Shown: in pieces, positions 3,001 through 6,000 of the stretch
Layout of the letters: each line of letters begins with the position of its first letter
Numbering within the stretch: the first letter of the stretch is position 1
Origin: a virus
Lineage: Duplodnaviria; Heunggongvirae; Uroviricota; Caudoviricetes
DNA: 46,798 nucleotides
Reading direction: 5' to 3' (one strand)
IMG/VR virus record: IMGVR_UViG_2870474514_000003
Made by a program: the position numbers

Positions 3001-6000
3001 TACAGAGTCGAACAAATGGTATTTATGTGTATCTGCGGCATGTGATTTGGTTCCTACTCAGTGTAACGACCCTCACCATGTAAGATTAAGTCCGCACAGG
3101 CTCATTAAAGTTCTGGAGCTTTTTAACGCCAGTCAGAGTAAAGCATTGCCATTTGCTGAACATTCGAAATATATATATGTAATGCATAAAAATCAAAGAA
3201 AATATCTCTCTATTTTCGAAGGGGATAAAACGCTTCCTGTTGTTGATTATATGGTGGTGTTGAATCATGGAACAACAGTTGATGGCGAAGAAAAAATATT
3301 ATTTCTGCCGTGTTTTTAAGTAATATGGATGGCAACGTGCAAAATGTTCCTGTCCGACTCAAACTTAAATCTCAACTGAGAACTGGTTATGCAGAAAGAT
3401 ATCAGGCTATAGCGTCTCAGTATAGCTCAAGGATTGGTGTGGATTATTATGTATCAATGATGCTACCATAATTATTATATTTTAGGCGTGGTGATTTTTT
3501 TTCGCCATGCCTATTTTATATTTATCAACACAATGATGTTGTTTATTTTTGTTTAAGTCTTCTAAGCTTCATGCATTCTAATGAGAATAATAATAGAGTT
3601 GTGCTGTATATAAAGCCAGAGTTAGTTAATAACTTTAAATTTAATGCTTCAGGATTTTCACTGAGAAAGTGAAAGGCATAAACTAAGTATACAGCTAAAG
3701 TAGCCGTTCCAATTGTTGGTCCAATATCGCCTTGATCATGAGGTTCAAGGTTTACATTGAACTTGAAGATTAGCCATTCAAATCCCCAAGTAAAAAAAAC
3801 AACTAATATCATGGCTGCGAATAATTTCGCGATGTTATCTGCTGATGGATTCATCAGAACAGATTGTTTCTGAAAAAATTCACAAAGTGAGAGTCCGAAA
3901 AAAATAAAAAAAAGTGGTCTGGAACTAAATTTTTCAAAAACTTTGAATAGGGTTTCCATTTTCTTTACCTTCAGGATTATATTAGCTATTCTGATACTTA
4001 GGCTACCAGAGCATTTGATCTTTGAGCTTGAACGTAATCACTCCACCATTGCATCAAACTCTGTCGCTCTATCAGATATTCTGCACGATTGTATGCTGCG
4101 ATAATTTCATCTTTTTTCGAGTGGGCAAGCGCTGCCTCAAGAACTTCAGCTCTGAATTTACCAGACTCCTCTGCCGCTGTTCGTGCAATAGAACGCATAC
4201 CGTGAGCTACAAGCTCGCCTCCGAACCCCATTCGGATGATAGCTGCGTTGGCTGTTTGTTCATGCATATGATTAAGAGGCGCTTTTATGCTGGGGAAAAC
4301 CCATTCTCTATGCCCACTTATTGATTTCATTAATTCAAGGATGCGCAAAGCTTCTTTACTCAAAGGAACTTTGTGAAGCTTTTTCATTTTCATGAAATCA
4401 GCAGGAATGTTCCAAATGCTGTTGGTTGTATCAATATCAGACCACCTTGCGCGAACGGCTTCACCCGGACGAACCCATGTCAACAATTGCCATTCAATTA
4501 GCATACGTGTTTCCAACCGGATTGACGCATTCGTCAAAGATTCCATAAACCTTGGCAATTCGCTTGGGGGAAGGGCAGGCATATTTTGCTTTTTTGGTTT
4601 ACTGAATCTTTGACCAAGGTTGTCAGCCGGGTTGAACTCAATAAGTTCTTCAGTAGCTGCCCACCGGAAGATTTCATTCAGACGTGAAATGATACGGCGT
4701 AGAGTTTCCAATACGCCTCGTTGCTCAATAGGATCAAGGTGTTGTTTTAAGAGCTTAGGTCGGATCTCATTGATAGGGACATTACCCAGACCGGGAAAGA
4801 CATTTCTCTCTAAGCTGCGCCAGATGTCTGCTGCATGGTCTTGTGAGATACCTGATGTCTTTACCTTCTCATCTAACCATTTCCGCGCTACGGCTTGGAG
4901 AGTGTGCTCAGTAGCACTCTTTAATGCCTTCGCCTTATCGTTGTTATGGATTTGGGGATCAACACCATTTGCCAGAAAGGAGAGATATTCATCACGTAAG
5001 GCTCTGGCTCTTGCAAGGGTAAGGTGAGGATATGTCCCAAGGCTCATTTTGGTTCTTTTCTTGCTCACTGGTACTGCATACCTGAAATACCAATTTTTCT
5101 TGCCTCCTTTCGCCAAAGGAGCGATTCGTAGAATCAGACCATCACCGTCAAACAAGTTGATTTCTTTATCGGCTGGCTTGGTGCTTTTGATTTCAGTGTC
5201 AGTGAGCTTCTTAGCGATTTTTGCCATTTTGGGACCCTCGGTTTTTGGACCCTTCTTAGTGGGTCCCATTCAGGGTGCCATAACTCGTAGTTCTCAGCAA
5301 TTCTCACTGGACGACAATAGACGTAAAAAAGCCCGCAGAGCTTGTGCTGTGTGGGCTTAGTAGACTTCATTGAACTTCAAACAACTAAAAAGTGGTGGAG
5401 CTGGCGGGAGTTGAACCCATGTCCGAAATGTTATAACTAACTGAAATAATTGATTTCTTTTTCTTCAGTAGTTTCTGCGTGACTTTTACGGCTCCATTGA
5501 TGTGATTGCTGTGTCCAATGACGGTCCAATTTCCTAAATGTCATTCTAACGTTTTGTATGGTCTGACTTGTATTTTGTGTGGAAGATTTGAGAATAAATT
5601 CACTCTCAAAATGATCAGTGATGAGAGCGCCGCCTGAATCTTGGTATGTAATAACTAGCTTAGGACCATGAACGCTTTCTAATGTCTCACCCGCTAATAA
5701 TCTAAGATTAATCAAGTTATATAGTACAGTTGTTAATATAATTGGCAAGTGTATTATTGTGTTTTTTAAATTACCTTCTATTTGATGTTGAGGTAATATA
5801 TATTTCTCGTTGAAATTGAAATGGATGTTAAAACATTTATCGTTAATGATTATTTTTTTATGCTCAACGACTTCATAATTGAATAAATTAATTTTATTGT
5901 TTTTTGAGGCTCCCAGTTTTTCAATGATAGATGAAATGTCCTTTAAAGCATTGCTATAATTATATACCCATTTGTATTTTATATTTTGAGCTGAGCCATT

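What the first reader, a model, noticed from the sequence alone, without database searches (positions are those of the whole stretch)
5280..5440. Partial tmRNA (ssrA) 3' end and terminator upstream of the P4-type integrase, indicating tandem integrative elements at ssrA
The minus strand reads ATTTCGGACATGGGTTCAACTCCCGCCAGCTCCACCA, the acceptor-arm end of tmRNA with a few mismatches, but the sequence further 5' is not tmRNA. A hairpin plus T6 follows, then the integrase, mirroring the ssrA-terminator-integrase layout of CP4-57-type islands. A lambdoid prophage on one side and an integrase island on the other implies stacked insertions at ssrA, with the intact tmRNA gene probably beyond the right end of the window.
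Basis: partly seen in the sequence, partly recalled or inferred. Interest (0 to 1): 0.45.

Follow-up and report, generated by a model that had tools for sequence, protein, structure and literature searches.

The report
Prophage attR: displaced ssrA 3' fragment
The 37-base tmRNA-like piece is the ordinary right-hand attachment scar (attR) left when a lambda-like phage integrated into the E. coli tmRNA gene, pushing an older integrase island away from it.

Summary
Window 5393-5429 (minus strand) matches the last 37 nt of E. coli ssrA with two adjacent mismatches, against a chance expectation of 0. A hairpin with a T-run follows, then a P4-type integrase.

The window is the E. coli AR_0374 chromosome. 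The intact 363-nt ssrA lies 4.7 kb beyond the right end of the window, in the same orientation.

A three-way alignment with strain 503025, which has the empty site (ssrA-terminator-integrase directly adjacent), gives the classical attB/attL/attR pattern:
- The fragment and everything downstream of it is the old ssrA flank.
- Everything upstream of it is phage DNA.

The free phage LLS carries the same upstream arm, tmRNA fragment and downstream arm as one contiguous attP. Its integrase is 86% identical. Three more free phages with related integrases (67.6-91.7% identical) also carry the fragment downstream of int.

The crossover lay within the 26 invariant bases GGGTTCAACTCCCGCCAGCTCCACCA. The two mismatches are phage-derived.

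Caveats:
- The P4-type element is a 5.4-kb stump with no distal repeat, cut off by IS3.
- The prophage is damaged by two IS10 insertions and a frameshift in gene J.

This is textbook integration into a tRNA-like gene and a known hotspot. Interest is low.

The parts
5393..5429 (-). Displaced ssrA 3' fragment (37 nt), the core of the prophage attR. The upstream 11 nt, including the AT variant at 5419-5420, derive from phage attP.
5393..5418 (-). 26-nt block GGGTTCAACTCCCGCCAGCTCCACCA, identical in attL, attR, attB and three of the four free-phage attPs (phiNP differs at one base). Strand exchange must have occurred within it.
5323..5358 (-). Intrinsic-terminator-like hairpin plus T-run. It is island-borne, lies directly after intact ssrA in empty-site strains, and is orphaned here.
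3998..5227 (-). P4-type tyrosine integrase of the resident ssrA island (Arm-DNA-bind_3 + Phage_int_M + Phage_integrase; 48% identical to K-12 IntA).
1..3959 (.). Remaining cargo of the island stump. It comprises a HATPase_c/HEF_HK protein (1-1719 +), a Response_reg_2 protein (1703-3319 +, frameshifted here) and a 138-aa hypothetical protein (3543-3959 -). IS3 and a truncated ygaQ lie just left of the window.
5430..6090 (-). Phage P arm. It is the 3' part (5437-6090) of a 265-aa AT-rich phage gene lying between int and attP. The gene is intact in strain 3985 and split here by IS10; its 5' part is at 7429-7572.
6091..7419 (+). IS10 copy 1, a simple insertion with the 9-bp target duplication AGCAAAGTA (6082-6090 and 7420-7428).
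7614..8789 (-). Prophage integrase (Arm-DNA-bind_2 + Phage_integrase). It is 85.6% identical to phage LLS int and 91.7% to phiNP int.
8750..8956 (-). Excisionase-like gene, 88% identical to LLS gp33 ('putative excisionase').
7429..46798 (.). Body of the lambdoid prophage: immunity, replication, Q, lysis, terminase, portal, capsid, tail and tail fibre genes. It continues 4.7 kb beyond the window to attL at intact ssrA. The distance between the repeats is 46,121 bp.
32119..33447 (-). IS10 copy 2, a simple insertion in tail assembly gene T, with target duplication TGCGCAGTT.

Best explanation
The 37-nt piece is the attR junction of a roughly 43-kb lambdoid prophage (46.1 kb with two later IS10 insertions) that integrated site-specifically into the 3' end of ssrA.

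The phage attP carries its own copy of the last ~37 nt of tmRNA, flanked by a P arm (int, then an AT-rich gene) and a P' arm (a terminator, then accessory genes). The phage tyrosine integrase exchanged strands within the 26 bases GGGTTCAACTCCCGCCAGCTCCACCA, which encode the T-stem, T-loop, acceptor strand and CCA.

The results of that exchange are:
- ssrA stays intact and is sequence-identical to K-12 ssrA. It now ends in phage DNA with a phage-supplied terminator (attL, 4.7 kb right of the window).
- The phage's tmRNA-like copy is joined to the old downstream flank of ssrA (attR, in the window).

That old flank was already a mobile element: a P4-type-integrase island whose own terminator and int gene abutted ssrA. 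The result is a stack: ssrA, then prophage, then ssrA fragment, then island stump.

What is shown and what is inferred:
- Shown: the junction sequences, the empty site, a contiguous attP in related free phages, and the position of the exchange relative to the mismatches.
- Inferred: the order of insertion (island first, phage second), a T-loop-centred 7-bp overlap, and that the fragment itself has no function beyond serving as a recombination site.
For: - Window identity: the window is 100% identical to E. coli AR_0374.
- Intact tmRNA: it lies at L002 18392-18754, with tag peptide ANDENYALAA. It is 363/363 identical to ssrA of strains 503025 and K-12.
- Three-way alignment:
  - Empty site: ...GGACGCGGGTTC..CCACCA|CTTTTTAGTTG..terminator..int.
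  - Window: phage DNA|ATTTCGGACATGGGTTC..CCACCA|CTTTTTAGTTG.., identical downstream to the empty site.
  - AR_0374 ssrA: ..CCACCA|ATCATGATTGG.. followed by phage DNA.
- Free phage LLS (PQ299149): it has a contiguous P-core-P' region, annotated 'tmRNA pseudogene / attP'. This matches the reconstructed attP across the junction at 89.6% over 211 nt. P' matches at 92.8% over 181 nt, including the terminator AAGCCCGCTTATGCGGGCTTTTTT. The int lies about 0.9 kb upstream and is 85.6% identical; xis is 88% identical.
- Other free phages: phiNP, LMessi and phiES15 (int 91.7%, 68.8% and 67.6% identical) all carry the tmRNA 3' fragment downstream of int. Their sequences vary only upstream of the 26-nt block, apart from one mismatch at the first base of the block in phiNP.
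- Order of insertion: 7 of 5426 complete E. coli genomes share this junction. An evenly spaced sample of the ranking indicates that roughly 1,200 have the island flank directly on intact ssrA.
- IS10: both copies have their own 9-bp duplications, so they did not rearrange the locus.
- Literature: a regenerated tDNA plus a displaced fragment marks island ends; tandem arrays are recognised and the tmRNA gene is the most enriched target (PMC4383910). The E. coli tmRNA locus is hotspot #9, hosting prophages, P4-like satellites and other elements (PMC10121019).
Against: Nothing contradicts this explanation. The limits are:
- No free-phage record identical to this prophage was found; the best attP match is about 90%.
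- Integrase activity and the exact cleavage positions were not tested.
- The prophage is defective: IS10 in gene T and a frameshifted J. Present-day excision or virion production is uncertain.
- The structure alone cannot fix the order of insertion.
Confidence: 0.95

Rival explanations
1. The elements are the same but the order is reversed. The lambdoid phage integrated into ssrA first. The P4-type island then integrated into the partial ssrA copy at the prophage's attR, which served as a secondary target.
For: - The final architecture (B-O-P'phage ... Pphage-O-P'island) is the same under either order.
- P4-type integrases such as CP4-57 IntA need only about 14-15 nt of the ssrA 3' end; K-12 psaA is CCGCCAGCCCACCA. 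The 37-nt fragment contains that stretch.
- K-12 shows that stacking can occur in the other order: CP4-57 lies between ssrA and a 165-nt relic of the same kind of phage P' arm.
Against: - The island stump, with an identical IS3/truncated-ygaQ left end, is found directly on intact ssrA in strain 503025. By extrapolation it is so placed in about 1,200 genomes, whereas the phage junction is present in only 7.
- Under this rival, those genomes would all need precise phage loss after the island arrived.
Confidence: 0.04
2. The match is chance similarity, or a relic of a local ssrA duplication or rearrangement (for example IS10-mediated), rather than a site-specific recombination junction.
For: - IS10 lies only 660 bp from the fragment.
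- The island lacks a distal repeat.
Against: - 35 of 37 bases match, with 0 matches in 100 shuffles.
- The breakpoints are exact to the base on both sides in the three-way alignment.
- The upstream arm is contiguous with the fragment in free phage genomes.
- Strain 3985 has the same junction without IS10.
- Both IS10 copies have intact target duplications.
Confidence: 0.005
3. The orphaned fragment plus terminator is a functional RNA element: a tRNA-like 3' tail or sRNA, transcribed by read-through from the upstream phage gene and ended at the orphan terminator.
For: - The fragment starts 7 nt after the stop codon of the phage gene, and the next terminator is the orphan one.
- The same terminator module forms the 3' end of the Salmonella sRNA IsrM in Rfam; the match is partial, at 53 bits.
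Against: - The fragment lacks the 5' acceptor strand.
- Its T-stem is weakened by the AT variant (read directly from the sequence).
- The hit is far below the IsrM gathering score of 376 bits, and 253 nt of the model are absent.
- In this strain the upstream gene is split by IS10.
- There are no expression data.
Confidence: 0.03

Closest known systems
attL/attR junctions of elements integrated in tRNA/tmRNA genes (Islander principle: regenerated tDNA plus displaced fragment; PMC4383910)
   Same: - Intact ssrA at one end and a same-orientation 3' fragment at the other.
- An integrase gene inside the element.
- attP carries the tDNA fragment, so the gene is restored on integration.
   Different: Nothing essential differs. 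The fragment carries two phage-specific substitutions outside the exchange block.
Escherichia phage LLS (PQ299149), Citrobacter phage phiNP, Escherichia phage LMessi and Cronobacter phage phiES15: temperate phages with a tmRNA 3' fragment in attP
   Same: - Integrase 67.6-91.7% identical.
- Gene order xis, int, accessory gene, tmRNA fragment.
- LLS shares the P' arm and terminator at 93% identity.
   Different: - The accessory gene next to attP differs; it is 27% identical to LLS gp31.
- P' cargo differs beyond 181 nt.
- This copy is integrated and carries IS10 damage.
CP4-57 cryptic prophage of E. coli K-12 (ssrA-intA; attR = psaA)
   Same: - The island part shows the ssrA, terminator, P4-type integrase layout.
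- The integrase has the same domain architecture and is 48% identical to IntA.
   Different: - It shares no DNA with CP4-57 at megablast level.
- Cargo differs: an HATPase_c/HEF_HK protein plus a Response_reg_2 protein.
- It has no distal repeat equivalent to psaA.
- In K-12, CP4-57 sits between ssrA and a relic of the phage P' arm, which is the opposite stacking order.
E. coli defence-island hotspot #9 at the tmRNA locus (PMC10121019)
   Same: [quoted passage not shown]
   Different: This is one specific occupancy: a lambdoid prophage plus an island stump. Its cargo gave no PADLOC hit inside the window.

Membership tests
Displaced tDNA fragment (attR) of an ssrA-integrated element | An intact target gene on the same replicon, in the same orientation as the fragment | tested here: met
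   ssrA lies at L002 18392-18754 (-) and the fragment at window 5393-5429 (-).
Displaced tDNA fragment (attR) of an ssrA-integrated element | The fragment reproduces the 3' end of the target gene | tested here: met
   35/37 bases are identical and the last 26 are exact; chance expectation is 0.
Displaced tDNA fragment (attR) of an ssrA-integrated element | A tyrosine integrase gene lies between the gene and the fragment | tested here: met
   Window 7614-8789 (-) has Arm-DNA-bind_2 and Phage_integrase domains.
Displaced tDNA fragment (attR) of an ssrA-integrated element | An empty site (attB) in a related genome whose flanks equal the outer flanks of attL and attR | tested here: met
   Strain 503025 (L004) provides the empty site, with base-exact breakpoints.
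Displaced tDNA fragment (attR) of an ssrA-integrated element | A contiguous attP (inner flanks joined) in a free or excised element | tested here: met
   A homologous attP, not an identical one, is found in phage LLS (89.6-92.8% identity). phiNP, LMessi and phiES15 also carry the fragment next to int.
Displaced tDNA fragment (attR) of an ssrA-integrated element | Integrase-dependent excision and integration demonstrated experimentally | not testable with these tools
   This needs induction, junction PCR and an int knockout.
Tandem island array at a tDNA (Islander definition: each member has its own integrase and its own tDNA fragment) | Each member has its own integrase | tested here: met
   There are two different integrases, at 7614-8789 and 3998-5227. 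They are 25% identical over 128 aa.
Tandem island array at a tDNA (Islander definition: each member has its own integrase and its own tDNA fragment) | Each member has its own tDNA fragment at its distal end | tested here: not met
   Left of the P4-type island in L001 or L004 there is no match of 19 or more of the 26 core bases, and no exact match of 12 nt or more to the ssrA tail. The only 10-11-nt exact match lies inside the prophage, not at the island's distal end. IS3 abuts a truncated ygaQ. The array is therefore a prophage plus a truncated stump.
CP4-57 / P4-like-integrase ssrA islands | P4-type integrase architecture adjacent to the ssrA 3' end | tested here: met
   The integrase has Arm-DNA-bind_3, Phage_int_M and Phage_integrase domains. 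It is 48% identical to IntA. It lies adjacent to intact ssrA in strain 503025.
CP4-57 / P4-like-integrase ssrA islands | Shared CP4-57 gene content (alpA, yfj genes and others) | tested here: not met
   A megablast of the whole window against K-12 2754500-2796000 gave no hit. It is a different island with a related integrase.
tmRNA gene (Rfam RF00023) | A full-length match at or above the gathering score, or an ARAGORN call | tested here: not met
   The score is 23.4 bits against 47, and ARAGORN finds nothing in the window. It is a fragment, not a gene.
IsrM sRNA (Rfam RF02763) | A match at or above the gathering score | tested here: not met
   The score is 53 bits against 376. Only the ends of the model align and 253 nt are missing.

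The most novel reading that the evidence does not exclude
In relatives where the upstream phage gene is intact, the orphaned tmRNA fragment and island terminator could be transcribed as that gene's 3' UTR. They might then be processed into a small stable RNA, by analogy with Salmonella IsrM, whose 3' end is the same terminator module. The attR junction would then create a new chimeric transcript rather than a silent scar.
Probability: 0.04. Interest if true: 0.35.

Novelty: already known. Interest (0 to 1): 0.1.

Why it matters
The finding matters mainly for annotation.

- It fixes the exact right-hand boundary of a 46-kb prophage at window 5393.
- It shows that the P4-type integrase to its left belongs to a separate, older and truncated element.
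- It explains why a terminator sits with no gene in front of it.

It also gives a clean worked example of how ssrA accumulates mobile elements. Each newcomer inserts next to the gene, brings a fresh 3' end and terminator, and pushes earlier arrivals outward. Nothing here challenges current understanding.

Tried and rejected
- **Distal ssrA repeat for the P4-type island.** I looked in 15.8 kb to the left, allowing up to 7 mismatches over 26 nt and exact tails of 10-16 nt. None was found; the only 10-11-nt exact match lies inside the prophage.
- **IS10-mediated rearrangement.** I tested whether the two inverted IS10 copies had inverted or co-transposed the intervening 24.7 kb. This was rejected: each copy has its own matching 9-bp duplication, both halves of gene T are collinear, and the outer flanks differ.
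- **Hidden tmRNA gene.** ARAGORN found none. Rfam gave only a sub-threshold match to the 3' end.
- **IsrM.** This was considered and rejected; only the terminator module is shared.
- **Defence-system identity of the island cargo and the AT-rich phage gene.** PADLOC gave no hits for them.
- **Williams 2002 and 2003 papers on tmRNA-gene integration.** These are not held in the library. Statements about T-loop sublocations therefore rest on my own knowledge and on PMC4383910.
- **One literature search failed** on a too-short term.

Full report
**Observation**

On the minus strand, window 5393-5429 reads ATTTCGGACATGGGTTCAACTCCCGCCAGCTCCACCA. Compared with the E. coli ssrA 3' end it has two adjacent mismatches, GC->AT at window 5419-5420. 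It is the only such site in the window, and none occurred in 100 dinucleotide-preserving shuffles.

- ARAGORN finds no tmRNA or tRNA in the window.
- Rfam's tmRNA model sees only the 3' end, at 23.4 bits against a gathering score of 47.
- The fragment begins 7 nt after the stop codon of an AT-rich ORF, so the sequence 5' of it is indeed not tmRNA.
- A hairpin plus T-run follows at about 5323-5358.
- A 409-aa integrase follows at 3998-5227, with Arm-DNA-bind_3, Phage_int_M and Phage_integrase domains, which is the P4-type architecture.

**Where the window comes from**

The window is 100% identical to E. coli AR_0374 chromosome NZ_CP027126.1, 4220878-4267675.

To the left lie IS3, a truncated ygaQ pseudogene and then the core genes glaH-gabDTP. 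To the right, the prophage continues for 4.7 kb: tail-fibre genes, a helicase gene, two hypothetical genes and an AbiTii-like gene. It ends at an intact ssrA (363 nt, tag peptide ANDENYALAA) next to smpB, in the same orientation as the fragment. That ssrA is identical to the K-12 and strain 503025 genes.

**The junctions**

Strain 503025 has the uninterrupted locus: smpB, ssrA, terminator, the same P4-type integrase, the same cargo, IS3 and truncated ygaQ. The alignment of three junctions is base-exact:

| Junction | Sequence |
|---|---|
| attB (503025) | ..GGACGCGGGTTCAACTCCCGCCAGCTCCACCA\|CTTTTTAGTTG.. |
| attR (window) | ..TTATAAC\|ATTTCGGACATGGGTTCAACTCCCGCCAGCTCCACCA\|CTTTTTAGTTG.., then identical to attB onward |
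| attL (AR_0374 ssrA) | ..GGACGCGGGTTC..CCACCA\|ATCATGATTGGACGG.. |

This is the B-O-B' / P-O-B' / B-O-P' pattern of site-specific integration.

- attL keeps the host GC and attR has the variant AT. Strand exchange therefore lay 3' of those positions, within the 26-nt block at window 5393-5418.
- By standard tmRNA structure, the two variant bases fall in the 5' strand of the T-stem. The block comprises the rest of the T-stem, the T-loop, the acceptor 3' strand and CCA.
- The placement of the overlap at the T-loop is inferred, not tested.

**Proof that both inner arms are phage DNA**

I joined the window's upstream arm to the sequence downstream of AR_0374 ssrA and searched phage genomes with it.

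- **Phage LLS (free phage).** It matches across the junction at 89.6% over 211 nt. The site is annotated by its depositors as 'tmRNA pseudogene' and attP. An integrase 85.6% identical lies about 0.9 kb upstream, and an excisionase-like gene is 88% identical. Its P' arm matches at 92.8% over 181 nt and includes a strong terminator (AAGCCCGCTTATGCGGGCTTTTTT). The phage therefore brings a new terminator to ssrA.
- **Three further free phages with related integrases.** phiNP (91.7%), LMessi (68.8%) and phiES15 (67.6%) all carry the tmRNA 3' fragment downstream of int. Their sequence differences lie 5' of the 26-nt block, apart from one mismatch at the first base of the block in phiNP. phiES15 has the same ACATGGG variant as the window.

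This integrase clade is thus ssrA-specific, and the 'mismatches' are phage sequence rather than decay.

**The prophage**

The distance between the repeats is 46,121 bp. This includes two 100%-identical IS10 copies:

| Copy | Coordinates | Target duplication | Gene split |
|---|---|---|---|
| 1 | 6091-7419 | AGCAAAGTA | 265-aa AT-rich gene between int and attP (intact in strain 3985) |
| 2 | 32119-33447 | TGCGCAGTT | Tail gene T |

Each copy has its own perfect 9-bp target duplication, so both are simple insertions that did not rearrange the locus. Without them the prophage is about 43.4 kb, close to LLS at 42.9 kb. Gene J is frameshifted. The prophage is probably defective for virion production, although int and xis are intact.

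**The P4-type element**

Its integrase is 48% identical to K-12 IntA of CP4-57. The window shares no DNA with the K-12 CP4-57 region at megablast level.

Its cargo is an HATPase_c/HEF_HK protein, a Response_reg_2 protein and a small hypothetical protein. The Response_reg_2 gene is frameshifted here and intact in strain 503025. No distal ssrA repeat was found, and the element ends at IS3 against a truncated ygaQ. It is a 5.4-kb stump that probably can no longer excise. By the Islander definition of a tandem array, in which each member has its own integrase and fragment (PMC4383910), the second member is incomplete.

**Order of events**

The architecture alone fits either order of insertion. Distribution favours the island arriving first.

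- Only 7 of 5426 complete E. coli genomes carry this phage-island junction.
- An evenly spaced sample of the 1866 matching genomes shows about two-thirds with the island flank directly on an annotated intact ssrA, which extrapolates to roughly 1,200 genomes.
- Strain 503025 shares the identical IS3/ygaQ truncation without the phage.

K-12 shows the opposite stacking. Its CP4-57 attR (psaA, CCGCCAGCCCACCA) is followed by 165 nt that are 90% identical to this phage's P' arm. A pinH relic also matches the prophage's right end.

**Comparison with what is known**

All of this is established biology.

- Elements that integrate in tRNA/tmRNA genes carry a gene fragment in attP that regenerates the target and leaves a displaced fragment. 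Tandem arrays are recognised, and tmRNA is the most enriched target (PMC4383910).
- The E. coli tmRNA locus is a documented hotspot for prophages, P4-like satellites and other elements (PMC10121019).
- Imperfect repeats at ssrA can matter functionally: CP4-57 excision deletes U357 and inactivates tmRNA (PMC10107115). Here the exchange block is perfect, so excision within it would leave ssrA unchanged (inference).

**Verdict**

Novelty: already known. Interest: low. The only reading with any novelty is that the junction yields a chimeric transcript or sRNA, hinted at by a sub-threshold hit of the Salmonella IsrM model to the shared terminator module. I rate this at about 4%.

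Noticed in passing
window 6091-7419 and 32119-33447: Two 100%-identical IS10 copies lie in inverted orientation with their RNA-OUT (outside) ends facing outward. This is Tn10 geometry around 24.7 kb of prophage DNA. Each copy has its own 9-bp target duplication, so they inserted independently. In principle the pair could now move the enclosed phage genes as a 27-kb composite transposon.
   Followed up: partly
window 5325-5402 (-): There is a sub-threshold Rfam hit to the Salmonella sRNA IsrM (53 bits against a gathering score of 376). 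Only the first ~20 nt and the 3' terminator of the model align, and 253 nt are absent. This suggests that IsrM occupies the equivalent slot in Salmonella, between an ssrA-type att core and a P4-type integrase.
   Followed up: partly
window 1-3319 (+): The island cargo is a pair of genes with Pfam HATPase_c + HEF_HK and Response_reg_2 domains. These are atypical kinase-like and receiver-like families. The second gene is frameshifted here but intact in strain 503025. PADLOC gave no hit for either.
   Followed up: partly
L007 (K-12) 23473-23637 and 28656-28781: In K-12 the CP4-57 attR (psaA) is followed by 165 nt that are 90% identical to this phage's P' arm, including its terminator. The pinH pseudogene region also matches the prophage's right end. 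K-12 thus seems to retain relics of a similar ssrA phage, with CP4-57 inserted afterwards.
   Followed up: partly
L002 14231-18224 (outside the window, prophage right end next to ssrA): The phage P' arm carries an AbiTii-like gene (PADLOC E = 1.6e-32) and a helicase gene (PADLOC 'Helicase', E = 3.8e-32). These are probably phage-borne defence cargo placed next to attL.
   Followed up: partly
window 5437-6090 plus 7429-7572 (-): A 265-aa gene with 31% GC and a predicted N-terminal hydrophobic segment lies between the phage int and attP, and is split here by IS10. It has no Pfam or PADLOC hit. It is 27% identical to LLS gp31, which occupies the same slot.
   Followed up: partly
window 13842-13964: Six iteron-like copies of a ~15-nt unit (TCAAAATCTGAC-type) lie inside the 313-aa replication-region gene (13554-14495). 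This is probably the prophage origin of replication.
   Followed up: no
window 46557-46755 (+): There is a full-length Rfam IS009 match (229 bits) inside the tail-fibre-assembly gene.
   Followed up: no
window 39060-42457 (+): The tail tip gene J is split into two ORFs and is annotated as frameshifted in RefSeq. This is a second lesion in the prophage tail module, in addition to IS10 in gene T.
   Followed up: no
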